From Flavobacteriaceae bacterium (GTDB lineage Bacteria > Bacteroidota > Bacteroidia > Flavobacteriales > Flavobacteriaceae): a DNA stretch of 32,000 bases. Below, piece after piece: positions 1 to 15,367 of the stretch; positions within the stretch are counted from its first letter, which is position 1; every line of letters begins with the position of its first letter. The stretch is taken from assembly GCA_965224465.1 (NCBI GenBank), contig OZ245049.1, positions 2,550,001-2,582,000 of the forward strand, given 5' to 3'. The notes beneath the pieces are model-generated. The model did no database searches, was not told the origin of the DNA, and saw only the letters and a list, made by a program, of their open reading frames with translations. Position numbers and translations under genes: made by a program.

Positions 1-692
1 CCAATAGAAAAGCTTTCTGAACATCCAACATGATGCTTATCCCATGGCATAGAATACAAATCCCCCCTACCAAATTCATGTTTTTCAGCATATTCCAACA
101 ATGGTTCAATATTTCTATTATTTGAAAGCCCCTTACCAACTTTACTATATGTTTTTTCATCCCAAACATACATTTGTTTTTTTCCTGGCCCTAAATGGTA
201 ATGTAGTACATTTTCTCCTCTATTATCTCTATGAATCCCAAGAGGGGTCCATCCATAATTACCTATGAAAGTAGTAAGTTCTATTCCCCAAGGAGGTATC
301 CCAATAATATCAAATAATGGTTGTACTGTTTTCAATATATATCCCGCCAAAATTTCCGAATGTTTTTCTCCATAATTAGTTATTATACCAAAATTTTCAC
401 CGAATACTCGTTCACAATATGATTGTATACCTTCATCGCTACTTAATTCATTTTTCTCAATTAATTTAATGATTTCTGAGTCACTCATTTCTATGCCGTC
501 AACATATAACCTAAATCCATTACTTATATCTAGTCTATTTATTCTAGATTTAAGCATTTCAAGAACACCTTCATTTAATACATTCACTAAATCATTCGAC
601 ATGCACCCCTCATAAACTTGTGTCTTTGTAAATGAAAAATTTTTCGCCATAAAAGACTTCCACCAATCGTGATTAAAGTTATTTGTTTTCAT
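1..692 (-). CDS. JmjC/cupin_4-like Fe(II)/2-oxoglutarate oxygenase (N-terminal ~230 aa; 3' end runs off the left edge of the window)
   Basis: Absent from the ORF track because it is open at position 1. My reverse-strand translation from the ATG (complement of 690-692) reads MKTNNFNHDWWKSF...TTFIGNYGWTPLGIHRDNRGENVLHYHLGPGKKQMYVWDE...FGRGDLYSMPWDKHHVGCSESFSI. The H-x-D (GIHRD), then G-x-K...W, then GDLYxxPxxxxH pattern resembles ribosomal-oxygenase/JmjC cupin hydroxylases. An in-frame stop lies upstream at 735-737. Confidence 0.6.
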   Translation of the reverse strand, partial: MKTNNFNHDWWKSFMAKNFSFTKTQVYEGCMSNDLVNVLNEGVLEMLKSRINRLDISNGFRLYVDGIEMSDSEIIKLIEKNELSSDEGIQSYCERVFGENFGIITNYGEKHSEILAGYILKTVQPLFDIIGIPPWGIELTTFIGNYGWTPLGIHRDNRGENVLHYHLGPGKKQMYVWDEKTYSKVGKGLSNNRNIEPLLEYAEKHEFGRGDLYSMPWDKHHVGCSESFSI

Positions 693-1020
693 TATTCCTC
701 TAGTTTTGTTACTATCTCTAATAAAATACTTGTTCTATAAAAAAAATTAAATCTGTAATTTCTAACTGTGTATTTTTTTATTCTTTCTTAAAATCCTAAT
801 TTTGTAATCTACCCAATAAAGTATCATTGTGGTAAGTGGGTAGTTTCATATAAAAAACGTCTATATTACTAACTATTGTTACTAAATCAACAAATCATAT
901 CATTAAAACGTTTCACTAATATGTTTTGAGTGGAACGTGTAAATATTTTGGCTTTCAAATATGCATAAACACTGAATTAAGTAAAATGCTGTTATTTACT
1001 AATCTCTAAAATATTATTTA

Positions 1021-1059
1021 TTGAAAAATGTAAGGATGTTTTACAGAAAACACCCTTAC
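1021..1059 (-). terminator. Rho-independent terminator/attenuator hairpin just downstream of the tandem precursor genes
   Basis: Plus-strand arms GTAAGGATGTTTT (1030-1042) and AAAACACCCTTAC (1047-1059) with loop ACAG form a 13-bp stem with one G-U wobble. On the minus-strand RNA the stem is followed by AUUUUUC. It starts about 20 nt after the stop of the 1080-1208 peptide gene. Confidence 0.6.
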
Positions 1060-1079
1060 GAGTAAATTAGAACATTATT

Positions 1080-1208
1080 CTAGCTTTCTACTTTCACTTC
1101 CTTTTTCTTTTCTTTCTTTGGTCTCTCATGCCCCCCTAATAAGGTTTGACTTTCAAGTGCCGATAATTCCTCAATATCAAGAAATTTTTTTGGATTTAAT
1201 TTTTTCAT
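1080..1208 (-). CDS. Double-glycine-leader RiPP precursor peptide, 42 aa (MKKLNPKKFLDIEELSALESQTLLGG | HERPKKEKKKEVKVES)
   Basis: Too short for the ORF track; translated by hand. The leader fits the double-glycine consensus (hydrophobic at -4, -12 and -15, Glu at -8, GG at -2/-1) and carries an FLD motif resembling the class I lanthipeptide FNLD box. It is a paralog of the neighbouring peptide gene, with many synonymous codon differences over conserved residues. Confidence 0.75.
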   Translation of the reverse strand: MKKLNPKKFLDIEELSALESQTLLGGHERPKKEKKKEVKVES

Positions 1209-1232
1209 AATAAAAATTTTAATTTGTAAATT

Positions 1233-1358
1233 TTACTTTGTTTCAACTTTTTTCTCTTTCTTTTTATCTGGTCTTTCGTGCCCTCCCTTTAAGGTTTGGC
1301 TTTCTAAAGCTGATAATTCTTGAGTATCTAAGAATTTTTCTGGTTTTGAATTTTTCAT
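1233..1358 (-). CDS. Double-glycine-leader RiPP precursor peptide, 41 aa (MKNSKPEKFLDTQELSALESQTLKGG | HERPDKKKEKKVETK)
   Basis: Hand translation. It shares KFLDxxELSALESQTLxGGHERP with the 1080-1208 peptide while using different synonymous codons (TTT/TTC, CTT/TTA, TCG/TCA, GCA/GCT, AGT/AGC, GGG/GGA, CAT/CAC, GAG/GAA). That pattern indicates purifying selection on a real coding sequence. Confidence 0.75.
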   Translation of the reverse strand: MKNSKPEKFLDTQELSALESQTLKGGHERPDKKKEKKVETK

Positions 1359-1612
1359 ATTAAAAATATAATTAAGTTAAACCTACTCATTGCTGGCTTT
1401 TCGGTTTCCGCCAATTTTTACTGCAGTAGTATTGTTTAACAAATAAATAATATTGTTATATAAATTCCAAAAATGTTTTCTTGAAATTTATAAATACAAA
1501 CATGATATTCATAAATTTCAAGAATAACAATAACACTCTAACAACTTGCTTGTTAGCTTATTACATCTTTGAATTAAAACAACTATATTTACGGAGAACA
1601 TTTTATAAAACC

Positions 1613-3847
1613 ATGCGGAAACAACGGAACCCCTATCAATTTTTAAGAACTTATTGCTTAAGAACCCCTCTTTTAGCCCTGAATATCTTAGATGATGTAT
1701 TTGGAAATAGACGGATTGATAAAAAAGCCTTAAGAACCTACTGGAATGATTCAGTAATTAAAGAAGCATTATTTTTAGCCTCTGCGGATTTACACCAACA
1801 ACTAAATCTGCTGTTTTTGGACCGCATAGAAAATACAAAAAAAGAGGAACGGCTGGTGCATAGTTTTTTAAAATACCTCCTTAGAGCTTCCACAAGGTGT
1901 ACTCCTTTTGGATTATTTGCGGGGATATCTATTGGGACCTTTGATACACATACAGCCATTCACATAGCTACCATAAATAACCATCGTAGAATTACGCAAT
2001 TAGATAGTAACTATATCGCGTCACTTTCCAAGCATTTATCTAACAATGCAGTTATAAAAAAACAATTATTATTTTATCCAAACACGTCTTTGTATAGACT
2101 TGGAGAACAATTCCGATATATAGAATATCAATTAACCGATAACAAACGTTCCTATAGCCTTGAAGCTGTGCAAAACAACGATTACCTTTCCCTATTACTT
2201 AGCCTTTCTAAAAATGGAGCGACCATTAATCAATTAGCAAAAAATCTTGTAAATAAGGAGATCTCTTTGGAAGATGCCACAGCTTATATACAACTCTTAA
2301 TAAGCAATCAAATTTTAGTGAGTTCCTTAGAATTGAATGTTACGGGCGATGACATGCTTTCTTGTATACTGAACGTACTTTCCAAGTTACATCACACAGA
2401 AAACATGGTTGCTAGACTCAAACATTTACAAAATCAATTAGAAAATTTAGACAAAAGACTTGGGAACACACCTAAAAATTACAAGAACATTCTCGAAACC
2501 CTAAAAAAAATACATGTCCCTTTTGAATCAAAAAATCTATTTCAAACAGATTTAAAGATATGCGCCCCCACAAACACATTGAACCAAAAACATGGATATA
2601 CACTTCTGAAATTAGTGCCCTTATTAAATAAACTTACTCCTTATATTCCAAATAAGAATTTAGAAAACTTCAAGAAAGCATTCACAAAACGCTATGAGCA
2701 GCAAGAAGTCCCCTTAATGCAACTGCTCGATATAGAATCCGGCATTGGATATATCCAACAAAGTACCATTTCCGACACGACTCCATTTCTGGAAGACATT
2801 CGTCCAAGACATAAAAACGACTTTGAAATAAACACCACCTACACTTATTCTAAATCCGACGAAATAATTAATAATAAACTGATTAAAACCCTAAAGAACA
2901 AGGAATATATCTTGGAGTTAATTGATGCCGATTTTGAGGAACTAGCATCTGACTGGAAATATGGATCAGATACTTTGTCTGCTTTCGTAGAAATAGTATA
3001 CATAAACAATGTAGAAACGTTGAGCGTAAAAGGTATTTATGAAGGAGCAGGGAATTTAATTGCACGCTTTGGTCACCTAGACACGCATTTATTAAAACAC
3101 ATTCAAGACATCACGGACAAAGAGCAACAAATGAATCCAAATTCCTTATTAACTGAAATTGTTCACCTTCCGGAAGACAGAACAGGAAACATCTTAAAAA
3201 GACCACATATAAGGAGTTACGAAATTCCGTATTTAGCAACATCAAACCTTCCAAAATCACAGCAAGTAGATTTAAAGGACATTGTTGTGTCTATAAAAAA
3301 CAATCACGTTGTATTGAGGTCAACGATTTTGAATAAAATAATCACTCCAAAATTAACCAATGCTCATAATTTCACCTCAAACTCGTTACCTGTCTATCAA
3401 TTTTTATGTGATTTACAATCGCAAAACACAAAACAGCAATTAGGATTTAACTGGCATCCATCAGTGAAAAAATATTCATTTTTACCAAGGGTACACTATA
3501 AAAATACAATTTTATCAAAAGCCCGATGGTATATTTCTCTTGAAAACATTCAGTTATTTATGAAATACGCCAAAAATGATCATAAATTACTAGCACAAAT
3601 TAATCGTTGGAAAACATCAAATGGTGCTCCGAAATTACTTGTTTTAATAGAAGGTGACAACACACTATTGATTCATTTAGAAAATTTAGAAAGTATTAAG
3701 TTATTTTTAAATATCATAAAAAGAAAAAAATTCTGTATACTTGAAGAATATTTATTTGAAGACAAAGTTGTTGTTAACAGCAATAACAAACGATTTACAA
3801 ATGAATGTATTATTGCACTTTACAATCAACAAAAACTAAAGCTGTAA
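1613..3847 (+). CDS. Lantibiotic dehydratase, LanB N-terminal (glutamylation) part of a split LanB
   Basis: ORF-track ORF 1481-3847. The likely start is the ATG at 1613 (MRKQRNPYQFLRTYCLRTPLL...), which matches the usual LanB N-terminus. The ~745-aa size, the RASTRCTPFGLFAG motif and the downstream SpaB_C partner fit Lant_dehydr_N-type proteins. Confidence 0.8.
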   Translation: MRKQRNPYQFLRTYCLRTPLLALNILDDVFGNRRIDKKALRTYWNDSVIKEALFLASADLHQQLNLLFLDRIENTKKEERLVHSFLKYLLRASTRCTPFGLFAGISIGTFDTHTAIHIATINNHRRITQLDSNYIASLSKHLSNNAVIKKQLLFYPNTSLYRLGEQFRYIEYQLTDNKRSYSLEAVQNNDYLSLLLSLSKNGATINQLAKNLVNKEISLEDATAYIQLLISNQILVSSLELNVTGDDMLSCILNVLSKLHHTENMVARLKHLQNQLENLDKRLGNTPKNYKNILETLKKIHVPFESKNLFQTDLKICAPTNTLNQKHGYTLLKLVPLLNKLTPYIPNKNLENFKKAFTKRYEQQEVPLMQLLDIESGIGYIQQSTISDTTPFLEDIRPRHKNDFEINTTYTYSKSDEIINNKLIKTLKNKEYILELIDADFEELASDWKYGSDTLSAFVEIVYINNVETLSVKGIYEGAGNLIARFGHLDTHLLKHIQDITDKEQQMNPNSLLTEIVHLPEDRTGNILKRPHIRSYEIPYLATSNLPKSQQVDLKDIVVSIKNNHVVLRSTILNKIITPKLTNAHNFTSNSLPVYQFLCDLQSQNTKQQLGFNWHPSVKKYSFLPRVHYKNTILSKARWYISLENIQLFMKYAKNDHKLLAQINRWKTSNGAPKLLVLIEGDNTLLIHLENLESIKLFLNIIKRKKFCILEEYLFEDKVVVNSNNKRFTNECIIALYNQQKLKL

Positions 3848-3955
3848 ACCAATAATACAACCATTAAAGATTTAGTTCCCCGTTATAAATAATAAAGTGA
3901 TCTGCCTTTACTGAGTATATATAGGTAAGACCCATTAATAAAAAAACGGGGGTAC

Positions 3956-4903
3956 ATGAACCATCTATATAAAGAGCGTCTGACACGCAAGAAAACACCC
4001 CATTGGGATGTTCCGTGTGAACGGAAAAAAAACACAGAACACACACAAAAAAAACGCACATTTATTATAGGGGAAGAGTGGCTTTATTATAAGCTATACT
4101 GCGGGGTAAAAACGGCTGACCTACTATTAACACGTGTAATAAAGCCTTTAACCGAACAATTACTAGAAGAAAAACGTATAGACCAATGGTTTTTTATCCG
4201 TTATTCAGATCCCGAACCTCATCTGAGAATTCGATTTCATTGTAATGATATCGCTGCTATTGGTAATATCATTAACTCCATCAAAGGCAGTATAGAATCT
4301 TATGTAAACAGCGGTATGATATGGAAAGTTCAGATCGACACCTATCAAAGAGAAATAGAGCGCTATGGAACCAACATGATTGTTAAATCAGAGTTTTTAT
4401 TTTATATAGACAGTAAAACTTGCCTCAACGCTTTAAGCCTTATAGATGATGATGAACTGCTTTTTTTATTTGCATTACGTATAATTGATAGTATCCTACA
4501 TATATTCGAATTAAGTGATCAAGAAAAAATAAGATTCACGAAGAACAATTTGAATCAGTTTAAAAAGGAAGTTGGATCTAGTAAAGATTTAAGCAAACAA
4601 CTATACACGAAGCATCAAGGATTAAAAACTAGAATAATAGCATTTATGAGCATGCAAACTCATGAAGAATATGCCTCATTAATTGTTCTTTTTAACGAAT
4701 ATGAAAAGAAACTAGATTATATAAAAGAAGCATGGAAGACGGAAAACATAGCCTTAAATTCATCAATGGAATATTTAATTTCAGATTATATCCACATGAC
4801 TGTAAATAGGATTTTCAGAGATAAACAACGACTTCATGAACTTGTTTGTTATGATAATTTGCATCGTTTTTATAATTATAAATTAGCAACCAATGAAAAA
4901 TAA
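3956..4903 (+). CDS. SpaB_C / thiopeptide-type bacteriocin biosynthesis domain protein (glutamate-elimination part of the split LanB)
   Basis: 315-aa ORF containing WLYYKLYCG...DQWFFIRYSDPEPHLRIRFH, the hallmark of the LanB C-terminal/TIGR03891-type domain. It has an unusual ~35-aa basic N-terminal extension. Confidence 0.75.
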   Translation: MNHLYKERLTRKKTPHWDVPCERKKNTEHTQKKRTFIIGEEWLYYKLYCGVKTADLLLTRVIKPLTEQLLEEKRIDQWFFIRYSDPEPHLRIRFHCNDIAAIGNIINSIKGSIESYVNSGMIWKVQIDTYQREIERYGTNMIVKSEFLFYIDSKTCLNALSLIDDDELLFLFALRIIDSILHIFELSDQEKIRFTKNNLNQFKKEVGSSKDLSKQLYTKHQGLKTRIIAFMSMQTHEEYASLIVLFNEYEKKLDYIKEAWKTENIALNSSMEYLISDYIHMTVNRIFRDKQRLHELVCYDNLHRFYNYKLATNEK

Positions 4904-6590
4904 TTACATGAAATATTATTTTATCTGTGTCTTGTATTTTTGTACAGCATTAATTTACAGTCAAAATAATATAGATTTTTTTTCGAAACCAATCGATAGC
5001 ATTGAGAAAATATTTATAAATCTCGACGAGTCTGAGAAAATAAAACTATCTAGTAACTATTTAAAAAAAGCCAAACATAACAACAACCAACTAAAAATAT
5101 GTAACGGCTACTTTCTAAAATCACTTGCTCATTCGCATACTGAAAAAGCAATACAATTTGCAGACAGTTTAATATATGTAGCCCAAAAGTTAAAAAACAA
5201 CCACATTATAGCAAAAGGGCACTTACAAAAAGGGATACAATTATACTACCAAGCAGAGTATAAACAAGCTTTAGACCAATACCTTTTGGCTAAAAATCAT
5301 TATTCTCAAAACAACGATGCATTTGAAATACTCAGAATAAGGCATTACGTCGCATTATTAAAAAATACCTCAGGTCAAGAAAAAGAAGCATTAAACATAT
5401 TCAAGTTAAATATGTCATTTTTCAAGAAGAACCTTAATAACAGAAAAATATATCCAAATCAATATTTTAAGTCTTTGTTTGCATTAGCAGATTCATACCA
5501 TAGAAACAAATTATTAGACTCCTCACAAATGATGAACCTTAAAGGATTAAACCAAAGCTATGAATTCGACAATAGCTTATACCCTCATTTTTTAATTTCA
5601 TATGGTGCAACAAGAATTTCAAGTAAAGAAGTTAATTTTGGTATTGATAGCCTTTTGAAAGCTGTGAATCTAATTTCAAACAAAAAAAAATCTATTTGTG
5701 GTTTGTATGCTATTATAAATGAAGGTTATGAAATGGCTAATAAGCAAAACTTAGCCATTCTTTACTTAAAAAAAATAGATTCTATATATCAGAAAAATCC
5801 AAACGTTATTTTTCATGCTAAAAATGCTAACAAGAAATTATTCGACCATTATAAATTAAATAACCTACAAAAAGAACAATTAGAAACCATCAATAAAATA
5901 TTAGCCATTGACAGTATTATTCAGATTAAACACTCCATGCTAAGTAAACAAATAGTTGAAAAATATGATATCCCTCAGCTTTTATCAGAAAAAGAGAAAC
6001 TTATTTATTCTCTAAAAAATGAAAATATTTTCAGTAAAAAAATGATTTTCATTTTTATCATTTTAAGTACTTCCCTACTTCTTGCTTTAGGTATTTATAT
6101 AAGACGGAATGTTATATATAAAAAACGATTTAAGAATTTAATGAATCAAACAACAAACAATAACTCCATTGTAAAGATTGATATTATTGATTCTCAGAGA
6201 ATTGCTATTATTGGTGTTTCTAAGAAAATTATCGAGGACGTTCTATATAAATTAGAAATATTTGAAAACTCAAATAGATTTATTAAAAGATACACACTAA
6301 GTTCTCTGGCAAAAGAATTAAAAACAAATAGTTCATATCTATCTAATATAATTAATTCTAAAAAAAATGAAAATTTCTCAAATTATTTAAATAATTTGAG
6401 AATACACTATGCAATTGAAAAATTAAAAAATGATAAAAAATTTAGGTCATACACTATAAAAGCAATTGCAAAAGAAGTGGGGTTTAATACTTCTCAATCA
6501 TTTTCGAACGCATTTTACAAAAACACGGGACTATTCCCTTCTTTTTTCATAAAACAACTATCTAGCTCTTACATAGATGATTACAATTAG
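4893..6590 (+). CDS. Signal peptide + TPR-like repeats + single TM + C-terminal AraC/XylS-type HTH regulator
   Basis: N-terminal hydrophobic signal (MKYYFICVLYFCTALIYSQ; alternative start at 4908). TM segment IFIFIILSTSLLLALGIYI. C-terminal SLAKELKTNSSYLSNIIN...IKAIAKEVGFNTSQSFSNAFYKNTGLFPS is a typical HTH_18/AraC double helix-turn-helix. Its start overlaps the upstream stop. Confidence 0.7.
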   Translation: MKNNYMKYYFICVLYFCTALIYSQNNIDFFSKPIDSIEKIFINLDESEKIKLSSNYLKKAKHNNNQLKICNGYFLKSLAHSHTEKAIQFADSLIYVAQKLKNNHIIAKGHLQKGIQLYYQAEYKQALDQYLLAKNHYSQNNDAFEILRIRHYVALLKNTSGQEKEALNIFKLNMSFFKKNLNNRKIYPNQYFKSLFALADSYHRNKLLDSSQMMNLKGLNQSYEFDNSLYPHFLISYGATRISSKEVNFGIDSLLKAVNLISNKKKSICGLYAIINEGYEMANKQNLAILYLKKIDSIYQKNPNVIFHAKNANKKLFDHYKLNNLQKEQLETINKILAIDSIIQIKHSMLSKQIVEKYDIPQLLSEKEKLIYSLKNENIFSKKMIFIFIILSTSLLLALGIYIRRNVIYKKRFKNLMNQTTNNNSIVKIDIIDSQRIAIIGVSKKIIEDVLYKLEIFENSNRFIKRYTLSSLAKELKTNSSYLSNIINSKKNENFSNYLNNLRIHYAIEKLKNDKKFRSYTIKAIAKEVGFNTSQSFSNAFYKNTGLFPSFFIKQLSSSYIDDYN

Positions 6591-6592
6591 AT

Positions 6593-6626
6593 TTACATGT
6601 TGAAATTTATAAATCTCAACATGTAA
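6593..6626 (+). promoter_or_regulatory. Perfect 11-bp inverted repeat between the regulator gene and the acidic precursor gene (terminator or operator)
   Basis: TTACATGTTGA (6593-6603) and TCAACATGTAA (6616-6626) are separated by 12 nt. The repeat starts 3 nt after the regulator stop codon, has no T-tract after it, and lies 56 nt upstream of the ATG at 6682. Confidence 0.4.
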
Positions 6627-6681
6627 GAAACTAATAACTCTTATTAAAACAGTATATTTTCAAAAATTTAAAAACATAATT

Positions 6682-6834
6682 ATGAAAAAAGAAAATAAAG
6701 ACAACGCATTGAGCTTTGAAAAATTTCAAATTTCAAAAATTAAGAGTCCAAAATATATTATTGGAGGTAATATTGGTCAAGATGATGATGATAATGATGA
6801 TGGCGGCGGCGGCGGTGTAACAGATACCCAATAG
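6682..6834 (+). CDS. Double-glycine-leader precursor peptide, 50 aa (MKKENKDNALSFEKFQISKIKSPKYIIGG | NIGQDDDDNDDGGGGGVTDTQ)
   Basis: Hand translation; not in the ORF track. It has a Bacteroidetes-style leader (MKK...LSFEKFQISKIK...IIGG). It sits between the regulator and the S9 peptidase and is followed directly by a strong hairpin. Confidence 0.6.
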   Translation: MKKENKDNALSFEKFQISKIKSPKYIIGGNIGQDDDDNDDGGGGGVTDTQ

Positions 6835-6849
6835 AATAAAACACTCCTT

Positions 6850-6892
6850 ATAAATCATCAAGATCTATATAATTTTGATGATTTATTTTTAA
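6850..6892 (+). terminator. Rho-independent terminator/attenuator after the acidic precursor gene
   Basis: Perfect 12-bp stem ATAAATCATCAA (6850-6861) / TTGATGATTTAT (6875-6886) with a 13-nt loop, followed by TTTTAAATT. It lies 24 nt upstream of the S9 peptidase start. Confidence 0.6.
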
Positions 6893-6915
6893 ATTCCGTA
6901 ACACCATAACAAAAG

Positions 6916-9090: not shown

Positions 9091-9097
9091 AAAAAAT

Positions 9098-10086
9098 ATG
9101 ACGAGATTTCCTTTTTACCATCAAAACGATGCCAAAGATTGCGGTCCTACTTGTTTAAAAATAGTAGCGAAGCATTATAAAAAGGTAATTGCATTACAAG
9201 AACTTCGTGCCTTGAGTGAAACTACCAGGGCAGGAAGTAGCTTGTTAGGATTGAGTGATGCAGCCGAAAAATTAGGGTTTAGAAGTTTAGGTGTTCAGAT
9301 AACACTTGATAAATTAGAAGAGGCACCTTTACCCTGTGTATTGCATTGGAACAAAAATCATTATATTGTTCTCTATAAAATTAAAAAAGGAATCTACTAC
9401 GTGTCAGATCCTGCACACGGAATACTCAATTATTCAAAAAAGGAATTTTTAAGACATTGGATCGGATTAAACGCTACTAATGTTACTGAAGAAGGCGTTG
9501 TTTTACTACTAGAGCCAAGTCCTTCATTTTATCAGAATAAATTTGATAAAGAAAAGAAGAAAGTAGGATTCTCCATGCTTCTCAACTATGTCATCCCCTA
9601 TAAAAAATTTATTTGGCAACTTATAATTGGTTTATTTGCAGCGAGTATATTACAGCTTATTTTTCCTTTTCTTACGCAAAGCGTGGTGGATGTAGGAATT
9701 AAAAATCAAGACATTCATTTTATTTATTTAATTCTGTTTGCACAATTGGCATTATTTGTTGGTAAAACAGCTATTGAAGTGGTGCGTAGTTGGATTTTAT
9801 TGCATTTAAGTACTCGGATTAACATCTCATTAGTCTCTGACTTTTTTATCAAACTAATGAATTTACCCATCGCTTTTTTTGACACTCGAATGACAGGTGA
9901 TATTTTACAACGTATTAATGACCATAAAAGAATTGAACGCATTCTAACTACATCCTCTTTAAGTGTCTTATTTTCTATGATGAACCTTATCGTATTTAGT
10001 ATTGTTTTAGGCTATTATGATATGAGTATTTTCGGAATATTTGTGTTTGGGAGTATCTTTTATTTTCTATGGATACTTTTATTTTT
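9098..10086 (+). pseudogene. Peptidase-C39-domain bacteriocin ABC exporter, 5' part (C39 + start of the TMD), truncated by IS insertion
   Basis: C39 catalytic motifs QNDAKDCGPTCL (Cys) and HWNKNHYIVLY (His), followed by TM helices. From 10087 the reading frame runs into IS sequence (…WILLFL-LNSSHKRNF*). Confidence 0.85.
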
Positions 10087-11211
10087 GCTGAATTCAAGTC
10101 ACAAACGCAACTTTTAGTTAAATAATAATTGTTCCATTACAAATATAGGGTTTTGATATTTATGTCTCTTCCTAGGTCTGTTATTTAATTTTGTTTCTAC
10201 CTCTTTGATTCTTTGATCTGTTAGGTTTGTAAAGTCACTTCCTTTGGCAAAATATTGTCTAATCAAACCATTTAAATTTTCGTTAGATCCTCTTTCCCAA
10301 GAGTGATATGGATGCGCAAAAAAGTAATCAATACATAAATTTTCTGCAACCTGCTCATGGCCTGCAAATTCTTTTCCATTATCAGCTGTTATAGTATGTA
10401 GATAAGGCTTCCAGTCTTCTAATATTTCATTGATAGCTTTAGTGACAACAACTGCTTCTTTAGAGCTTACTTTTTTCATTTTAAGCATTCCAGAAGCTCT
10501 ATCATTTACGGTAAGTATGGCTTGATTATGGTTTTTACCTATGATTAAATCGACCTCTAAATCTCCAAATCGATTTCTTTGTTCAACAACTTCAGGGCGT
10601 TGTTCTATACTAATACGATTCTTTATAACCCCTCTAGAATCCTTTGATGAGCCACGTTTTCTATATCTCCTTCCCTGTCTGCGAAGGTGTGTATGTAAAT
10701 CACCATCATTCCTCTTGTCTTCCCTAATATGCTGATATATACGCTCAATAGACACCGTTTCTTTACCTTGTTTTTTTAGGACACCAACTACTTGCTCAGG
10801 ACTATAATCGTCTCGCAATAACAACTCTATTGCTTGTTGAATATCTTCTGTAAAGCGTTTTCTTTTAGGCTTTTCTTTATGACGTTTAGCATACTTTTTT
10901 TGGGCTAATTCATGCTTGTAAACTCCATTTCTTTTGTCTGAATTACGCTTAATCTCTTTGCTAATAACAGACTTGTCTTTTCCTATAGCAGCTGCTATCT
11001 CAACCTGTTTATAACCTTGTTTTAACATGCAACAAATTGTGTATCTTTGCGCTTGGGTGATGTGTTTCATACAACTTCTTTTTTCGAGATTTGAGACCGT
11101 AAGATACATATCCATCAAGACAAGAAAGGTAGGTTTTCCTACTTTTCTGTTTTGAAAATATAACCATCATAGAATCAAATCGAAAAGTTGCGTTTATTAG
11201 TTGAATTTAAG
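10087..11211 (-). mobile_element. IS30-family insertion sequence, copy 1 (~1125 bp)
   Basis: It holds a transposase ORF identical to the one at 14266-15270. It has imperfect ~30-bp terminal inverted repeats (GCTGAATTCAAGTCACAAACGCAACTTTTAG at 10087; complement of CTTAAATTCAACTAATAAACGCAACTTTTCG ending at 11211). Deleting 10087-11211 rejoins the ABC gene in frame (…WILLFL|LKKRGDLDYKRF…). Confidence 0.85.
10114..11070 (-). CDS. IS30-family DDE transposase
   Basis: N-terminal HTH (MKHITQAQRYTICCMLKQGYKQVEIAAAIGKDKSVISKEIKRN). DDE core: DLEVDLIIG ... TITADNGKEF ... ERGSNENLNGLIRQY. The track ORF extends to 11118, but the MKHITQAQRY start at 11070 is more typical. Confidence 0.85.
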   Translation of the reverse strand: MKHITQAQRYTICCMLKQGYKQVEIAAAIGKDKSVISKEIKRNSDKRNGVYKHELAQKKYAKRHKEKPKRKRFTEDIQQAIELLLRDDYSPEQVVGVLKKQGKETVSIERIYQHIREDKRNDGDLHTHLRRQGRRYRKRGSSKDSRGVIKNRISIEQRPEVVEQRNRFGDLEVDLIIGKNHNQAILTVNDRASGMLKMKKVSSKEAVVVTKAINEILEDWKPYLHTITADNGKEFAGHEQVAENLCIDYFFAHPYHSWERGSNENLNGLIRQYFAKGSDFTNLTDQRIKEVETKLNNRPRKRHKYQNPIFVMEQLLFN

Positions 11212-12415
11212 ATTAAAAAAGAGAGGGGATCTAGACTATAAACGATTTTCTGAGGTAAGTCAAGAACAAAGTAAAGTGATAGAGCTAATTAACGGCATGC
11301 AAGAAATAAAATTACACAATGCAGAAAAACAAAAACGTTGGGGTTGGGAATTTATTCAAGCACGCTTATTTAAAGTTTCCATGGAAGGGCTCGCCTTGGA
11401 GCAATACCAAAATGTAGGTTCCAATTTTATCAATGAAATTAAAAATATTTTAATCACCGTATTGTCTGCAAAACTGGTGATTGATGGAGAAATAACCTTA
11501 GGAATGATGTTAGCTATTAGCTATATAGTAGGGCAATTAAACGCCCCTATCTCACAATTAATAAATTTTGTAAGAGAAGTGCAAGATGCCAAAATATCAC
11601 TGGAAAGGCTCTCGGAAATCCACCTCAAAGAAGACGAGGAATCAATATACCAAGAACGTATCACAACAGTTGAAGACAACAAAGGTCTATACATTTCCAA
11701 CCTGTCATTCCGCTATCTAGGTTCTGAGCAACGAGTACTAAAAAACTTAAACCTACAAATCCCTTCAAATAAAATAACTGCTATTGTTGGCACTAGCGGT
11801 AGTGGAAAAACAACCTTAATGAAACTCTTATTGAAATTTTATGACCCTAACCAGGGAAGTATAAAATTAGGGAATCAAGATTTAAAAAATATTTCACAAA
11901 AAACATGGAGAAACGAATGCGGAGTGGTACTACAAGAAGGATACATTTTTAATGACACTATCGCAAATAACATAGCGCTAGGTGAAGACTTTGTGGACAA
12001 ATTGAAACTAGAACATGCCGTTGATGTAGCCAACATAAAATCATTTATTGAAACACTTCCTTTATCGTACAATACCAAAATAGGAATGGAAGGAGTTGGC
12101 TTAAGTACAGGTCAAAAACAACGTTTACTAATTGCACGTGCCGTATATAAAAATCCAAATTTTTTATTTTTTGATGAAGCAACAAGTGCCTTGGACGCCA
12201 ATAATGAAAAAATAATCATGGAAAAATTGAATCACTTTTTCAAAAATAAAACAGTCATCGTTATTGCCCATAGATTGAGTACTGTAAAAAATGCAGATCA
12301 AATTGTAGTTTTAGATGAAGGAAACATTGTAGAAGTAGGAAATCACACTTCACTTGTTAAGAAAAAGGGGAGCTATTACCATTTAGTTAAGAATCAATTG
12401 GAACTGGGGAGTTAA
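11212..12415 (+). pseudogene. Bacteriocin ABC exporter, 3' part (end of the TMD + nucleotide-binding domain)
   Basis: Continues the 9098 frame after IS removal. Walker A GTSGSGKTT, signature LSTGQKQR, Walker B LFFDEATSALD, H-loop IAHRLS. The first 'MNL' of the track ORF is a TTG codon within IS-end sequence, not a real start. Confidence 0.85.
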
Positions 12416-12651
12416 CATGGATTACGAAAGGATTAATTACGAAGTGTTAAATTACGAATCTGAATGCGTGTTTTAAATGACAGTACTTATATTTTATATA
12501 AAAAATAGCTCAATGTCATAAATTATTACGGTACTGCAGCCTTCAAAAAACATTAACATTTGAAATTCTAAATTAAATAATAACTATATTTAAAAAAAGA
12601 GTTACGGATTTGCTTTATTGATAGTTATCTAATGTAGAAAATTAATTGCCG

Positions 12652-12928
12652 AGAAAAAGGAATTTCTACTGTCCAAACAATTATTGCGTAGTGGAACATC
12701 CATAGGAGCAAATATAGAAGAAGCTATTGGAGCTATAAGCACAAAAGACTTCCTTTTGAAACTTTCTATTTCTTATAAAGAAGCAAGAGAAACCCATTAT
12801 TGGTTACGTCTTTTAAAAGAAAGTAGTTATACCTCCGAAAAAGAAGGATCCTATTAATAACACAGTGTGAAGAATTATTGCGAATTATTGGTCGTCTACA
12901 AAAAACAATGAAATCTCGTAATTCGTAA
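12652..12928 (+). pseudogene. Four-helix-bundle protein (23S rRNA intervening-sequence protein family) remnant, 5'-truncated and frameshifted
   Basis: Hand translation gives LIAEKKEFLLSKQLLRSGTSIGANIEEAIGAISTKDFLLKLSISYKEARETHYWLRLLKESSYTSEKEGSY*. After a frame change it continues ITQCEELLRIIGRLQKTMKSRNS*. The RSGTSIGANI.EA / KEA.ET.YWL motifs are characteristic. There is no start codon, and an in-frame stop lies just upstream at 12640-12642. Confidence 0.6.
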
Positions 12929-12946
12929 TTCCAAATTAAGAAAAAA

Positions 12947-14172
12947 ATGTCAAATCAGCTAGAAAACATAAAACTACGAAGTGAAGAAGTACAAGAAATT
13001 TTAACAAAAGTACCACATTGGATGATACGTTGGGGTAATGTCTTATTTCTATGTATAATTCTATTGCTTTTACTCATTTCTTGGCTTGTAAAATACCCAG
13101 ATATTATAACTTCTAATGCAATTATAACCACCCATATTCCTCCTCAGAAAATACATGCAAAAACAACTGGTAATCTAGAGGTTATACTCGTAGAAGATTT
13201 AGAGTTACTGCTAAAGAATCAACCTATAGCAATTATTGAGAATACAGCAGATTATAAAGATGTATTTATCCTTAAAGCTATTATTGACACTCTTAAAACA
13301 AGCAATAAAACACTTAGATTTCCTTTTGATAATATGCCCGTTTTGTCCTTAGGACCTATTGAATCTTCCTATGCTATCTTTGAAGGAAACTACCTTCAAT
13401 ATTGTTTAAATCAGGAACTACGCCCCTTTACTAACAAGGCTATAGCGAATAACATATCCATTTTAGAACTCAAGAAGCGCTTACAAAATGTTCAAGCACA
13501 AAAAGGAATTCAATTCACTGAACTCGCATTTAAAAAGAAAGACCTGAGCAGAAATAAATTCCTGTATGACAAAGGTATTATATCCACTCATGCATACGAA
13601 TTAAAACAATTAGAATTTGCACAGTTTAATAGAGAATTTCAAAATCATGAGGCTGTATTATCGCAAATAAGAGAAGCGCTTAGCAATGCAAACAGAACAT
13701 CCAAAGGAGTAGAAATTAATCGTATAATGGAAGAAATGGTATTACATAAAAATGTAGTCCAATCGTTAAATCAGTTAAAAAAAGCAATTAAAGACTGGGA
13801 GTATTTATATGTATTACAACCTAATACCGAAGGTTATGTTGCATTTATAGACATCTGGAGTGCGAATCAATCCGTACAGCAGGGAGACTTAATTTTTTCT
13901 GTTATCCCCTGTAAAAACACTACCTATATTGCAAAACTCAAAACACCATCTCTAAATTATGGCAAAATAAAAATAGGTCAATCTGTACATCTTAAACTTG
14001 ACAATTACCCTGATATAGAATTCGGCGTATTGAATGGCATCGTTAAAAAAATAGGTCAAATACCTAATAAAAATGGACGGTACAATATTGACGTACAGCT
14101 GCCAAAAAAATTGATCACTTCCTATAACAAAGAGATTATATTCAAACACGAAATGACCGCCAAAGCAGAAAT
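12947..14172 (+). pseudogene. HlyD-family secretion adaptor, 5' major part, interrupted near its 3' end by an IS
   Basis: N-terminal TM anchor (WGNVLFLCIILLLLLISWLV), coiled-coil middle region and C-terminal barrel region. After …FKHEMTAKAEI the frame enters IS sequence (LNSTNKRNFSI*). Confidence 0.8.
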
Positions 14173-15297
14173 CTTAAATTCAACTAATAAACGCAACTTT
14201 TCGATTTGATTCTATGATGGTTATATTTTCAAAACAGAAAAGTAGGAAAACCTACCTTTCTTGTCTTGATGGATATGTATCTTACGGTCTCAAATCTCGA
14301 AAAAAGAAGTTGTATGAAACACATCACCCAAGCGCAAAGATACACAATTTGTTGCATGTTAAAACAAGGTTATAAACAGGTTGAGATAGCAGCTGCTATA
14401 GGAAAAGACAAGTCTGTTATTAGCAAAGAGATTAAGCGTAATTCAGACAAAAGAAATGGAGTTTACAAGCATGAATTAGCCCAAAAAAAGTATGCTAAAC
14501 GTCATAAAGAAAAGCCTAAAAGAAAACGCTTTACAGAAGATATTCAACAAGCAATAGAGTTGTTATTGCGAGACGATTATAGTCCTGAGCAAGTAGTTGG
14601 TGTCCTAAAAAAACAAGGTAAAGAAACGGTGTCTATTGAGCGTATATATCAGCATATTAGGGAAGACAAGAGGAATGATGGTGATTTACATACACACCTT
14701 CGCAGACAGGGAAGGAGATATAGAAAACGTGGCTCATCAAAGGATTCTAGAGGGGTTATAAAGAATCGTATTAGTATAGAACAACGCCCTGAAGTTGTTG
14801 AACAAAGAAATCGATTTGGAGATTTAGAGGTCGATTTAATCATAGGTAAAAACCATAATCAAGCCATACTTACCGTAAATGATAGAGCTTCTGGAATGCT
14901 TAAAATGAAAAAAGTAAGCTCTAAAGAAGCAGTTGTTGTCACTAAAGCTATCAATGAAATATTAGAAGACTGGAAGCCTTATCTACATACTATAACAGCT
15001 GATAATGGAAAAGAATTTGCAGGCCATGAGCAGGTTGCAGAAAATTTATGTATTGATTACTTTTTTGCGCATCCATATCACTCTTGGGAAAGAGGATCTA
15101 ACGAAAATTTAAATGGTTTGATTAGACAATATTTTGCCAAAGGAAGTGACTTTACAAACCTAACAGATCAAAGAATCAAAGAGGTAGAAACAAAATTAAA
15201 TAACAGACCTAGGAAGAGACATAAATATCAAAACCCTATATTTGTAATGGAACAATTATTATTTAACTAAAAGTTGCGTTTGTGACTTGAATTCAGC
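14173..15297 (+). mobile_element. IS30-family insertion sequence, copy 2 (~1125 bp), inverted relative to copy 1
   Basis: Same ends and an identical transposase protein as copy 1. It is flanked by AAT (14170-14172) and AAT (15298-15300), a candidate 3-bp target duplication. Confidence 0.85.
14314..15270 (+). CDS. IS30-family DDE transposase (identical to the 10114-11070 copy)
   Basis: The 334-aa track ORFs are identical, and the spot-checked nucleotide stretches at both ends are identical. Confidence 0.85.
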   Translation: MKHITQAQRYTICCMLKQGYKQVEIAAAIGKDKSVISKEIKRNSDKRNGVYKHELAQKKYAKRHKEKPKRKRFTEDIQQAIELLLRDDYSPEQVVGVLKKQGKETVSIERIYQHIREDKRNDGDLHTHLRRQGRRYRKRGSSKDSRGVIKNRISIEQRPEVVEQRNRFGDLEVDLIIGKNHNQAILTVNDRASGMLKMKKVSSKEAVVVTKAINEILEDWKPYLHTITADNGKEFAGHEQVAENLCIDYFFAHPYHSWERGSNENLNGLIRQYFAKGSDFTNLTDQRIKEVETKLNNRPRKRHKYQNPIFVMEQLLFN

Positions 15298-15367
15298 AAT
15301 AATTACAGAAGACTTGCGACTTATAGATCGCTTTTTTTATCGATTGAAAAAGAGCCTGCGTAATTGA
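15298..15367 (+). pseudogene. HlyD adaptor 3' remnant displaced by IS copy 2
   Basis: Hand translation from 15299 gives IITEDLRLIDRFFYRLKKSLRN*. This is the typical C-terminal tail of bacteriocin-type HlyD proteins and is in frame with …MTAKAEI once the IS is removed. Confidence 0.7.

What the first reader, a model, noticed from the sequence alone, without database searches (positions are those of the whole stretch)
1..15367. Cys-free RiPP locus: split LanB, no cyclase, three GG-leader precursors, JmjC-like oxygenase, prolyl oligopeptidase and C39-ABC/HlyD export
Gene content is that of a class-I-lanthipeptide-like cluster. It has the LanB glutamylation protein (1613-3847), the SpaB_C elimination protein (3956-4903) and a C39-peptidase ABC exporter with a HlyD adaptor. 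No ORF in the window has LanC-like features, and none of the three candidate cores contains Cys, so thioether (lanthionine) rings cannot form. Each core has only one or two Ser/Thr, all within the last five residues (…VKVES, …KVETK, …GVTDTQ). A JmjC/cupin-type 2OG oxygenase and an S9 prolyl oligopeptidase complete the locus. I do not recognise this combination as a characterised RiPP class. Plausible chemistries are C-terminal Dha/Dhb formation, lysinoalanine-type Lys-to-Dha crosslinks as in duramycin, or side-chain hydroxylation. All of these are inference.
Basis: partly seen in the sequence, partly recalled or inferred. Interest (0 to 1): 0.9.

Follow-up and report, generated by a model that had tools for sequence, protein, structure and literature searches.

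The report
Two adjacent modified-peptide gene systems
The region holds two separate neighbouring gene sets for small secreted modified peptides, neither with a known product: a dehydratase set, common in flavobacteria, that lacks the ring-forming enzyme but has its own membrane sensor-regulator and a conserved DNA box, and a set that pairs lysine-rich peptides with an oxygenase; the exporter here is broken by two insertion sequences.

Summary
I confirmed split LanB (PF04738 4e-132; PF14028 2e-64), an S9 peptidase, a C39-ABC exporter with HlyD, three Cys-free GG-leader peptides, a JmjC-like gene cut by the window edge, and no LanC. It is not one pathway. Comparison with 100+ related loci separates two units.

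It recurs in 23 of 43 flavobacterial LanB loci. None of the 23 has LanC within about 10 kb. A 22-bp palindrome (GTCGAnATTTATAAATnTCGAC) lies upstream of both lanB and the precursor.

(2) A cassette of K/E-rich GG peptides plus a JmjC-like oxygenase. It was found in 55 metagenome loci. The five long loci examined carry their own C39-ABC and outer-membrane barrel, and most lack LanB. Several K-rich cores have no Ser/Thr, so they are not conserved LanB substrates.

In this window the module's ABC and HlyD genes are each split by a near-identical IS30 copy.

The most likely function is an autoregulated, dehydrated linear peptide, possibly a pheromone that controls the neighbouring cassette. This is inferred. 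No paper describing either unit was found.

The parts
3..692 (-). 5' part (230 codons) of a JmjC-like Fe/2OG oxygenase gene; it runs off the left edge of the window
   Evidence: Translation. 71% identical over 230 aa to the 431-aa enzyme of L057. HxD...H motifs are conserved in the family. Homologues hit PF08007 below the cut-off. An AF2 model of homologue P0003 matches YxbC, YcfD, FIH, TYW5 and JMJD5.
1080..1208 (-). K/E-rich GG-leader peptide A1: MKKLNPKKFLDIEELSALESQTLLGG|HERPKKEKKKEVKVES
   Evidence: Homologous peptide pairs or sets sit directly upstream of JmjC-like genes in L048, L049, L056, L057, L061 and L071; in L099 they lie directly downstream of the gene. Alignment A5.
1233..1358 (-). 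K/E-rich GG-leader peptide A2: MKNSKPEKFLDTQELSALESQTLKGG|HERPDKKKEKKVETK
   Evidence: Same as for A1.
1480..1522 (.). Two inverted copies of the module's operator box (TTGAAATTTATAAAT at 1481-1495 on +, and at 1507-1521 on - with one mismatch), in the divergent intergenic region between peptide A2 and lanB-N
   Evidence: 4 matches with at most 1 mismatch in the window against 0.12 expected; 0 of 100 shuffles reach 4. The box is at the same position in at least 14 other loci.
1613..3847 (+). lanB-N: glutamyl-tRNA-dependent Ser/Thr glutamylation protein of a split LanB
   Evidence: PF04738 4e-132. Matches 9g04 at 2e-42 and MibB 5ehk; the RASTRCTPFGLFAG motif is present.
3956..4903 (+). lanB-C: glutamate-elimination protein (SpaB_C)
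   Evidence: PF14028 2.4e-64 and TIGR03891. Aligns with the elimination domains of NisB and 9g04 with catalytic-region motifs conserved.
4893..6590 (+). Regulator: N-terminal signal/anchor helix, about 7 TPR-like repeats (extracytoplasmic by topology), TM helix, AraC-type HTH. Its start overlaps the lanB-C stop codon.
   Evidence: HTH_18 3.6e-13. Homologues carry TPR_12/TPR_2/TPR_8. AF2 model with pLDDT 88.4. Foldseek matches TPR superhelices, including Rap pheromone receptors. Conserved directly after lanB-C in 23 of 43 loci.
6593..6626 (.). Palindromic operator box upstream of the module precursor: TTACATG-TTGAAATTTATAAATCTCAA-CATGTAA
   Evidence: alignment A4; consensus GTCGAnATTTATAAATnTCGAC with an invariant centre. 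It could also fold as an RNA hairpin, -12.5 kcal/mol with no U-tract.
6682..6834 (+). Module precursor: MKKENKDNALSFEKFQISKIKSPKYIIGG|NIGQDDDDNDDGGGGGVTDTQ (Cys-free; Thr at -4 and -2)
   Evidence: A positional homologue lies between the regulator and the peptidase in 22 loci, with the conserved leader MKK..KLSLEKFKIAELKN..IIGG. The leader fits the Bacteroidetes class I LxLxKx5L/GG motif of PMC7268733.
6916..9090 (+). S9 (prolyl oligopeptidase family) peptidase with a lipoprotein-like signal (…LFFMNC)
   Evidence: PF00326 plus PF02897. GASAGG, NDSRV and GGHGF triad motifs read directly. 47% identical to the module peptidase of L099. Replaced by an S8 subtilase in 8 loci.
9098..10075 (+). C39-peptidase ABC exporter, 5' part (C39 domain with DCG/NHY motifs and the first TM helices)
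   Evidence: Joining it to 11215-12415 restores one 725-aa ORF.
10076..11214 (-). IS30-family insertion sequence, copy A (transposase 10114-11118)
   Evidence: HTH_38 plus rve. 1139-nt inverted match to copy B, about 99.7% identical; the outermost ~10 nt at one end differ.
11215..12415 (+). C39-ABC exporter, 3' part (last TM helices and ATPase)
12947..14169 (+). HlyD-type periplasmic adaptor, 5' part
   Evidence: PF13437 and TIGR01843. Joining it to 15309-15367 restores a 426-aa ORF.
14170..15308 (+). IS30-family insertion sequence, copy B (transposase 14266-15270)
15309..15367 (+). Displaced 3' end of the HlyD gene (…DLRLIDRFFYRLKKSLRN)

Best explanation
The span 1-15367 holds two independently conserved peptide systems placed back to back, plus two recent IS30 insertions.

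System 1, on the + strand at 1480-15367, is a self-contained, cyclase-free LanB module.
- LanB-N glutamylates Thr (or Ser) of the Cys-free precursor 6682-6834, and LanB-C eliminates the glutamate. This leaves Dhb/Dha in a short linear peptide. The enzyme families are shown; the substrate and product are inferred.
- The GG leader is cut and the peptide exported by the C39-ABC/HlyD pair (inferred from family).
- The S9 lipoprotein peptidase trims the acidic/Gly spacer outside the cytoplasm (inferred).
- The module's own regulator has a TPR superhelix outside the membrane and an AraC HTH inside. It binds the conserved palindrome upstream of lanB and of the precursor, so the module is autoregulated. 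Co-conservation is shown; binding is inferred.
- The same box lies in the shared divergent promoter region, so the regulator probably also drives the neighbouring cassette (inferred).

System 2, on the - strand from 1358 to beyond position 1, is a cassette of two Lys/Glu-rich GG-leader peptides and a JmjC-like Fe/2OG oxygenase. The oxygenase most likely hydroxylates side chains (Lys, Asp or Glu) of those peptides (inferred). In relatives the cassette continues with its own C39-ABC and an outer-membrane barrel.

In this genome the module's exporter and adaptor genes are each disrupted by a near-identical IS30 copy. Export by System 1 is therefore probably lost, or depends on another transporter.
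For: Families:
- LanB-N, LanB-C, S9, C39-ABC, HlyD, IS30 and HTH_18.
- No LanC in the window.

Module conservation:
- 23 of 43 loci found with LanB-C have the order lanB-N, lanB-C, regulator.
- A GG precursor follows the regulator in 22 of them. An S9 peptidase (12 loci) or an S8 peptidase (8 loci) follows that.
- None of the 23 has LanC within about 10 kb. LanC is present in 11 other loci, which have Cys-rich cores.
- L013 has the same regulator, peptide and S9 next to LanC, and its core has 2 Cys.

Leader specificity:
- Module precursors share the leader MKK..KLSLEKFKIAELKN..IIGG. The K-rich peptides do not.

The module LanB is separate from any cargo LanB:
- In L107 the module sits beside a complete cassette with its own fused LanB, two LanC genes and a 3-Cys LanA.

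Operator:
- The palindrome is found just upstream of lanB-N and of the precursor in at least 14 loci.
- Its centre is invariant, and the second half-site, which was not selected for, is also conserved.

Regulator:
- AF2 model with pLDDT 88.4: signal helix, TPR solenoid, TM helix, AraC HTH.
- Foldseek matches TPR peptide binders, including Rap receptors.

JmjC cassette:
- 55 metagenome loci.
- K-rich GG peptides lie next to the enzyme in all 8 loci inspected besides the window; L044, with several paralogues, instead carries a Val/Arg-rich GG peptide. OMP_b-brl_3 and C39-ABC are present in the five long loci examined (L056, L057, L061, L071, L099).
- The LanB motif and the operator box are absent from about 50 of these loci.
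- The enzyme fold is JmjC.

Twin architectures:
- The module lies divergent from the JmjC cassette, with boxes in between, in L061 and in L098/L099.

IS30:
-.
Against: - There is no chemistry or expression data. Dehydration of the module peptide and hydroxylation of the K-rich peptides are inferred only from neighbourhood.
- The window's own core has no Pro, Arg or Lys, so an S9 cleavage site cannot be named.
- AraC-family proteins usually bind direct repeats, not palindromes. The box could belong to another factor or be a promoter element.
- Upstream of the precursor the box can also form an RNA hairpin.
- The window regulator itself gives no significant TPR Pfam hit.
- The module and the JmjC cassette are neighbours in at least three independent contigs, so a biochemical link cannot be excluded. 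LanB could act on those K-rich peptides that do carry Ser/Thr.
- S8-type module precursors often have 1-2 Cys without a nearby LanC.
Confidence: 0.6

Rival explanations
1. One hybrid RiPP pathway. All three peptides are substrates of a single assembly line in which LanB dehydrates C-terminal Ser/Thr, the JmjC-like oxygenase hydroxylates, S9 trims and the C39-ABC/HlyD pair exports.
For: The genes are physically adjacent with a shared divergent promoter region that carries the box. The same juxtaposition recurs in L061 and L098/L099. Both window K-rich cores do carry one Ser or Thr near the C-terminus.
Against: About 50 of 55 JmjC cassettes show neither the LanB motif nor the box. The five long JmjC loci examined have their own C39-ABC. 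20 or more LanB modules have no JmjC gene. 4 of 15 K-rich cores have no Ser/Thr, and Ser/Thr positions are not conserved. The K-rich leaders lack the LEKFKI box that co-varies with LanB. Between the window and L061, the JmjC enzyme is 71% identical but LanB-C only 50% and the regulator 35%, so the two units have different histories.
Confidence: 0.12
2. An ordinary class I lanthipeptide system whose LanC and Cys-containing precursors lie elsewhere in the genome. On this view the Cys-free peptide at 6682-6834 is not the true substrate.
For: The window shows only about 15 kb around LanB. Unclustered partner genes are known for lanthipeptides (PMC8960859, listed). S8-type module precursors sometimes contain Cys.
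Against: The Cys-free precursor is positionally conserved in 22 loci, with a leader matching the Bacteroidetes class I motif. Presence of LanC and of Cys co-vary: L013 and L005 have both, and the S9-type module loci have neither. No LanC is seen in 15-20 kb of L061, L099 or any of the 23 module loci. In L107 the neighbouring canonical cassette brings its own LanB and LanC genes.
Confidence: 0.08
3. The module makes a secreted dehydropeptide with a direct effector role (antimicrobial, metal-binding or other). The TPR-AraC protein is merely a pathway regulator that senses something other than the peptide, so there is no pheromone loop.
For: The enzymology is the same as in the best explanation. 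Many RiPP clusters carry dedicated regulators. TPR folds are generic. No binding data exist.
Against: The mature cores would be very short and highly variable, which is atypical for a conserved antimicrobial pharmacophore. No immunity gene is conserved in the module. The sensor domain diverges fastest (35% against 50-71% for neighbouring proteins), as expected if it co-evolves with the peptide. The module accompanies very different cargo cassettes: rSAM, JmjC, LanBC and class-II-like peptides.
Confidence: 0.2

Closest known systems
Class I lanthipeptide clusters of Bacteroidetes with split LanB (pinensin type; PedA peptides of Pedobacter lusitanus)
   Same: Split LanB-N/LanB-C proteins, the LxLxKx5L leader ending in GG, and a C39-ABC exporter (PMC7268733).
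   Different: No LanC and no Cys in the core, so no lanthionine can form. A TPR-TM-AraC regulator and an S9/S8 peptidase are fixed parts of the unit, and a conserved operator is present.
LanB-type dehydration without cyclisation in thiopeptide and goadsporin (linear azole peptide) pathways
   Same: Split glutamylation and elimination proteins whose Dha/Dhb products are kept rather than turned into thioethers. LanB-C hits TIGR03891 'thiopeptide-type bacteriocin biosynthesis'.
   Different: No YcaO/cyclodehydratase, dehydrogenase or [4+2] pyridine synthase in the window. The TbtD/PbtD hit is only 14 bits against a cut-off of 325. The cores are short and acidic with 1-4 Thr.
Autoinducing peptide circuits: agrBDCA, nisin/subtilin autoinduction through NisRK/SpaRK, and RRNPP (Rap/NprR/PlcR) TPR receptors
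   Same: One locus carries precursor, maturation enzymes, exporter/protease and a sensor-regulator, with the regulator's presumed site upstream of the locus's own genes. The TPR solenoid resembles Rap pheromone receptors.
   Different: The sensor is a single-pass membrane protein with an external TPR domain fused to an AraC HTH. It is neither a histidine kinase/response regulator pair nor a cytoplasmic RRNPP protein. The host is a Gram-negative Bacteroidota. No ligand binding has been shown.
JmjC-type Fe/2OG peptide hydroxylases in RiPP pathways: CzlI (curacozole) and BipG (biphenomycin)
   Same: A JmjC/cupin fold whose nearest structure is B. subtilis YxbC (1VRB), as reported for CzlI (PMC11575548). 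The gene is encoded next to its precursor peptides.
   Different: The sequence family has no Pfam assignment. The substrates are GG-leader Lys/Glu/Asp-rich peptides in Bacteroidota. The cassette includes an OMP_b-brl_3 barrel and a C39-ABC. The target residue is unknown.
Two-step leader removal by a second extracytoplasmic protease (LicP/CylA subtilases; prolyl oligopeptidases FlaP/LanPB of class III lanthipeptides)
   Same: GG cleavage by a C39 domain followed by a secreted or lipoprotein S8 or S9 peptidase encoded next to the precursor (PMC7268733).
   Different: It is associated here with class-I-type LanB. The window's core lacks Pro, so prolyl specificity cannot apply as such.

Membership tests
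Class I lanthipeptide biosynthetic cluster | LanB dehydratase: glutamylation domain (PF04738) and elimination domain (PF14028) | tested here: met
   E=4e-132 and 2.4e-64. Alignments to 9g04 and NisB show the catalytic-region motifs.
Class I lanthipeptide biosynthetic cluster | LanC cyclase (PF05147) in the cluster | tested here: not met
   No hit in any window ORF of at least 80 aa. The model does detect LanC in L021, L013 and L107. Absent from the twin loci L061 and L099. The rest of the genome could not be searched.
Class I lanthipeptide biosynthetic cluster | Cys residues in the core peptide for thioether formation | tested here: not met
   The cores NIGQDDDDNDDGGGGGVTDTQ, HERPKKEKKKEVKVES and HERPDKKKEKKVETK have no Cys. 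All 14 S9-type module cores without a nearby LanC are Cys-free.
Class I lanthipeptide biosynthetic cluster | Leader with the Bacteroidetes LxLxKx5L motif ending in GG | tested here: met
   The peptide at 6682-6834 (ALSFEKFQISKI…IIGG) aligns with the KLSLEKFKIAEL…IIGG family. The motif is from PMC7268733. It is not met by the two K-rich peptides.
Thiopeptide / linear azole peptide pathways using split LanB | YcaO cyclodehydratase and, for thiopeptides, a [4+2] pyridine synthase | tested here: not met
   No such Pfam family in the window ORFs. NF045556 scores 14.3 bits against a cut-off of 325.
PEARL (peptide aminoacyl-tRNA ligase, small LanB) | A LanB-N-like protein acting without an elimination domain | tested here: not met
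   A separate, intact elimination protein is encoded immediately downstream.
LanB plus LanJ systems that make D-amino acids | Zn-dependent dehydrogenase (LanJ-like) next to LanB | tested here: not met
   No ADH-family ORF in the window. It is present in other loci such as L025, L026 and L037-L040.
JmjC / cupin_4 Fe(II)/2-oxoglutarate oxygenases | Significant match to a JmjC profile (PF08007/PF02373/PF13621) | tested here: inconclusive
   The window fragment has no hit. Homologues score 19.2 and 16.3 bits against a cut-off of 22. Full-length L056 and L057 have no hit at E<=0.01.
JmjC / cupin_4 Fe(II)/2-oxoglutarate oxygenases | Double-stranded beta-helix fold with an HxD…H metal triad | tested here: met
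   The model of P0003 (50% identical to the window fragment; residues 1-178 at pLDDT about 60-87) matches 1vrb, YcfD, FIH, TYW5, JMJD5 and NO66 with E from 5e-7 to 3e-5. GIHxD and a downstream HVG/HIG are conserved. Enzyme activity was not tested.
Autoinducing peptide (quorum-sensing) circuit | Precursor, maturation genes and sensor-regulator in one conserved unit | tested here: met
   23 of 43 loci, plus L061, L099, L107 and L108.
Autoinducing peptide (quorum-sensing) circuit | A regulator-dependent cis element upstream of the unit's own genes | tested here: inconclusive
   A conserved palindrome lies at both promoters. Binding by the AraC domain has not been shown.
Autoinducing peptide (quorum-sensing) circuit | The mature peptide is the ligand of the sensor and induces the unit | not testable with these tools
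   Needs peptide isolation or synthesis and reporter assays.
IS30-family insertion sequence | DDE transposase (HTH_38 plus rve) flanked by terminal inverted repeats, with insertion splitting a host gene | tested here: met
   HTH_38 1.7e-8; rve at 20 bits is below the cut-off. Imperfect terminal inverted repeats (I2 and I4). Excision in silico restores both host ORFs.

The most novel reading that the evidence does not exclude
The five-gene LanB module is a ribosomal-peptide pheromone circuit of Flavobacteriia. A short dehydrobutyrine-containing peptide is exported and trimmed by the S9/S8 peptidase. The external TPR domain of a single-pass AraC regulator senses it. The regulator then activates, through the conserved palindrome, its own operon and whichever 'cargo' peptide cassette lies divergently next to it. 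That cargo is the JmjC/K-rich peptides here, and rSAM, LanBC or class-II-like bacteriocins elsewhere. This would be a peptide quorum-sensing system in Bacteroidota, built from a lanthipeptide dehydratase that has lost its cyclase.
Probability: 0.3. Interest if true: 0.85.

Novelty: new variant of a known kind. Interest (0 to 1): 0.7.

Why it matters
Genome-mining tools and surveys file these flavobacterial loci as 'class I lanthipeptide' (for example PMC10734526). The conserved unit has neither cyclase nor Cys, so its product cannot be a lanthipeptide.

The regulator and operator give concrete handles for experiments: a 22-bp box, a defined sensor domain and very short predicted peptides. These make it possible to test whether Bacteroidota use modified peptides as signals, and to switch on the silent neighbouring cassettes.

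The second unit defines an unannotated family of JmjC-like enzymes, found in 55 or more environmental loci. They are tied to Lys/Glu-rich exported peptides and are candidates for new peptide side-chain oxidations.

For this particular genome, the practical point is that the module's exporter is knocked out by IS30.

Tried and rejected
- Exact-sequence look-ups of window proteins (LanB-C, S9) found no source contig, so the sequence left of the window could not be read directly. L061 was used as an architectural proxy.
- The first word-index search suggested the JmjC-like protein was nearly unique, with 5 homologues. The metagenome scan corrected this to 55 loci.
- A profile search of PDB by sequence gave only noise-level hits for the JmjC-like family. 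A fold search was needed.
- The broad alignment A1 was too divergent for locus scanning.
- The idea that the TTG at 1481 starts lanB-N was dropped. The ATG at 1613 fits homologues, and 1481-1521 is the operator.
- Lysinoalanine, C-terminal Dha on the K-rich peptides, and a single-pathway reading were rejected for lack of conserved Ser/Thr.
- A terminator reading of the palindrome was considered. It forms a hairpin but has no U-tract, its 'loop' is the invariant part, and it also occurs in the divergent, non-3' position.
- Literature searches found no description of the module. Bothwell 2021 could not be opened.
- The scripting machine was lost. As a result, no LanB phylogeny, no tblastn for LanC pseudogene fragments in the window, and no systematic count of peptides in all 55 JmjC loci could be done.

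Full report
**What is in the window**

ORF listing and Pfam/NCBIfam scans give the following genes.

Minus strand:
- A gene fragment at 692->3 that runs off the window edge.
- Two small ORFs upstream of it, at 1080-1208 and 1233-1358. They have double-glycine leaders and Lys/Glu-rich cores.

Plus strand:
- lanB-N at 1613-3847 (PF04738, 4e-132).
- lanB-C at 3956-4903 (PF14028, 2.4e-64).
- A 565-aa protein at 4893-6590 with a C-terminal AraC HTH.
- A 50-aa GG-leader ORF at 6682-6834.
- An S9 peptidase at 6916-9090.
- A C39-ABC exporter in two pieces (9098-10117 and 11201-12415).
- HlyD at 12947-14209.

No ORF of at least 80 aa anywhere in the 32 kb hits LanC. The rest of the window (15.6-32 kb) holds unrelated genes: GNATs, a BNR/sortilin protein, ChaN, an M24 peptidase, SusC/SusD and an enolase-family protein. 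LanB looks functional: the N part aligns end to end with the solved LanB 9g04, and the C part keeps the NisB-type elimination motifs.

**IS30 damage**

Two ~1.14-kb IS30-family copies lie at 10076-11214 and 14170-15308. They are inverted relative to each other and identical except for a few bases at one extreme end (and my reading). One splits the ABC gene and the other cuts off the last ~19 codons of HlyD. Removing them in silico restores a 725-aa ABC and a 426-aa HlyD whose tail is the small ORF ending at 15367. These are recent insertions and are the only lesions seen.

**The LanB genes belong to a conserved five-gene module**

A genome scan with LanB-C returned 43 loci, the best at 49% identity. 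Gene clustering and peptide listing were checked by Pfam on representatives.
- 23 loci show the order lanB-N, lanB-C, homologue of 4893-6590.
- In 22 of them a GG-leader peptide gene follows.
- An S9 peptidase (12 loci) or an S8 peptidase (8 loci) follows that.
- None of these 23 has LanC within about 10 kb.
- LanC occurs in 11 other loci, whose precursors are Cys-rich.

The module precursors share a strongly conserved leader (MKK..KLSLEKFKIAELKN..IIGG). This leader fits the Bacteroidetes class I LxLxKx5L/GG motif of Walker et al. (PMC7268733). Their cores are short, hypervariable, acidic at the start and Thr-rich. In all S9-type loci without a nearby LanC the cores are Cys-free. L013 has the same regulator, peptide and S9 next to a LanC, and its core has two Cys. 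Presence of LanC and presence of Cys therefore co-vary. This argues that the peptide at 6682-6834 is the real LanB substrate and that the cyclase-free state is genuine.

In L107 the module lies next to a complete canonical cassette with its own fused LanB, two LanC genes and a 3-Cys LanA. The module's LanB is thus not simply the dehydratase for whatever peptides lie nearby.

**The regulator and its operator**

The 565-aa protein has only two hydrophobic segments, at residues about 8-22 and about 393-412. A DNA-binding HTH must be cytoplasmic, so the ~370-residue middle domain must be extracytoplasmic.
- Homologues carry TPR Pfam domains.
- The AF2 model (pLDDT 88.4) shows about 7 TPR-like repeats, a long helix containing the TM segment, and an AraC domain.
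- Foldseek returns peptide-binding TPR superhelices, including Rap pheromone receptors. This is only a generic resemblance.

Reading the intergenic DNA revealed a shared 15-mer. It forms a palindrome three bases after the regulator's stop codon and upstream of the precursor (6593-6626). Two inverted copies lie in the divergent region upstream of lanB-N (1480-1522). The window has four matches with at most one mismatch, against 0.12 expected, and 0 of 100 shuffles reach four.

The same element (consensus GTCGAnATTTATAAATnTCGAC) sits at exactly these two positions in at least 14 other loci, whose LanB proteins are only 35-50% identical to the window's. The half-site I did not select for is also conserved, and the centre is invariant. 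This pattern fits a protein-binding operator better than an RNA hairpin. I infer that it is the site of the module's own regulator, which would make the module autoregulated. Binding has not been tested.

**The two K-rich peptides belong to a different unit**

The truncated minus-strand gene has no Pfam hit. A word-index search found five homologues, and a metagenome scan found 55 loci.
- In eight loci inspected besides the window (L048, L049, L056, L057, L061, L071, L099 and, with a Val/Arg-rich peptide instead, L044), one to seven GG-leader peptide genes lie next to the enzyme gene. Except in L044, their cores are Lys/Glu/Asp-rich (alignment A5).
- The five long loci also carry an OMP_b-brl_3/TonB-receptor-like barrel and their own C39-ABC. 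L057 adds a PF05118 Asp/Asn hydroxylase.
- Four of 15 cores have no Ser/Thr, and the leaders differ from the LanB-type leader.
- A back-translated LanB motif, positive in 33 of 43 LanB loci, and the operator box are both absent from about 50 of these loci.

The enzyme is a JmjC-type oxygenase by fold. The top Foldseek hits are YxbC (1VRB), YcfD, FIH, TYW5, JMJD5 and NO66. There are sub-threshold PF08007 hits and a conserved HxD…H motif. JmjC hydroxylases are already known in RiPP pathways: CzlI, whose nearest structure is also 1VRB, and BipG. Side-chain hydroxylation of the K-rich peptides is therefore the likeliest chemistry (inferred).

**Why the two units are neighbours**

The module lies divergently next to varied GG-peptide cassettes:
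- rSAM plus OMP plus ABC in Flavobacterium.
- Class-II-like peptides plus HlyD/ABC in Tenacibaculum and others.
- LanBC in L107.
- The JmjC cassette in the window, in L061 and in L098/L099.

The box always sits in the shared intergenic region. L061 is an IS-free architectural twin of the window. Between the window and L061, the JmjC enzyme is 71% identical, LanB-C 50% and the regulator 35%. The sensor is thus the fastest-evolving part. This pattern suits a regulatory or pheromone module that controls variable cargo. It is an inference, and I give it a probability of about 0.3. The more conservative reading is an autoregulated dehydropeptide of unknown role.

**Comparison with known systems, and novelty**

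The module fails two defining tests for a class I lanthipeptide cluster, LanC and Cys. It lacks the YcaO/pyridine-synthase genes of thiopeptide or LAP pathways. It is not a PEARL, and it has no LanJ. Its enzymology resembles LanB-only dehydration as in goadsporin and thiopeptides. Its layout resembles agr- or nisin-type autoinduction, but with a single-pass TPR-AraC sensor.

In the searchable literature such loci are only labelled 'class I lanthipeptide' by antiSMASH-based surveys. No product, regulator or operator is described.

I rate this a new variant of a known kind and of clear interest. For this particular genome, the interest is tempered by the IS-disrupted exporter and by the absence of any chemical or expression evidence.

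Noticed in passing
window 12684-12857 (+): A 57-aa remnant of a '23S rRNA intervening sequence protein' four-helix-bundle gene (PF05635, 5.5e-15, profile positions 37-89 of 106) lies between the ABC and HlyD genes. A similar C-terminal fragment lies upstream of the K-rich peptides in L048.
   Followed up: partly
window 693-1079: A 387-nt stretch with no credible ORF lies between peptide A1 and the JmjC-like gene. Relatives L057 and L061 carry two further GG peptides there, with Cys-containing cores. This may be a decayed remnant.
   Followed up: no
window 10076-11214 and 14170-15308: The same IS30 element has inserted twice, in inverted orientation, within about 4 kb of one exporter operon. 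This could reflect local hopping or selection against export. The pair could also invert or mobilise the segment between them.
   Followed up: partly
L037, L038, L040 (Flavobacterium spp.), about 12-20 kb: A fused full-length LanB and a Zn-alcohol-dehydrogenase-like gene (PF08240, possibly LanJ-like) sit next to arrays of 12 to about 30 tandem GG-precursor genes with near-identical hydrophobic cores (…GG|TTPVCVGVIIGLTMSIAIDKALD). No LanC was seen.
   Followed up: no
L025: 4482-7311: A split-LanB module is flanked by an ADH-like gene and five GG peptides with Ser/Thr/Trp-rich repetitive cores (for example …SITITYSISWSWSITYTWSI).
   Followed up: no
L020 about 2600; L029 2840-2880; L030 about 2834: An extra tandem pair of the operator box lies about 4.6 kb upstream of lanB, with no ORF of at least 30 aa beside it. 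It may be a further regulon member or a small unannotated gene.
   Followed up: partly
L044: 411-11301: One contig carries three or four paralogues of the JmjC-like gene (one split), a C39-ABC, a DUF5916 protein, and a GG peptide whose core is almost entirely Val/Arg (DAGRSVVVRVVRVVVVVVVVVVSS).
   Followed up: no
L057: 9132-9770: A PF05118 Asp/Asn beta-hydroxylase gene directly follows the JmjC-like gene in the closest full-length relative of the window's cassette. This suggests two different hydroxylations on the K/D/E-rich peptides.
   Followed up: no
L011, L012, L015, L016, L018, L019, L023, L056, L057, L061, L071, L099, L107: An OMP_b-brl_3/TonB-receptor-like outer-membrane barrel (about 790 aa) is a recurrent first or last gene of GG-peptide cassettes, whatever the tailoring enzyme (rSAM, JmjC-like or LanBC). 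Its role (export, uptake or immunity) is unknown.
   Followed up: partly
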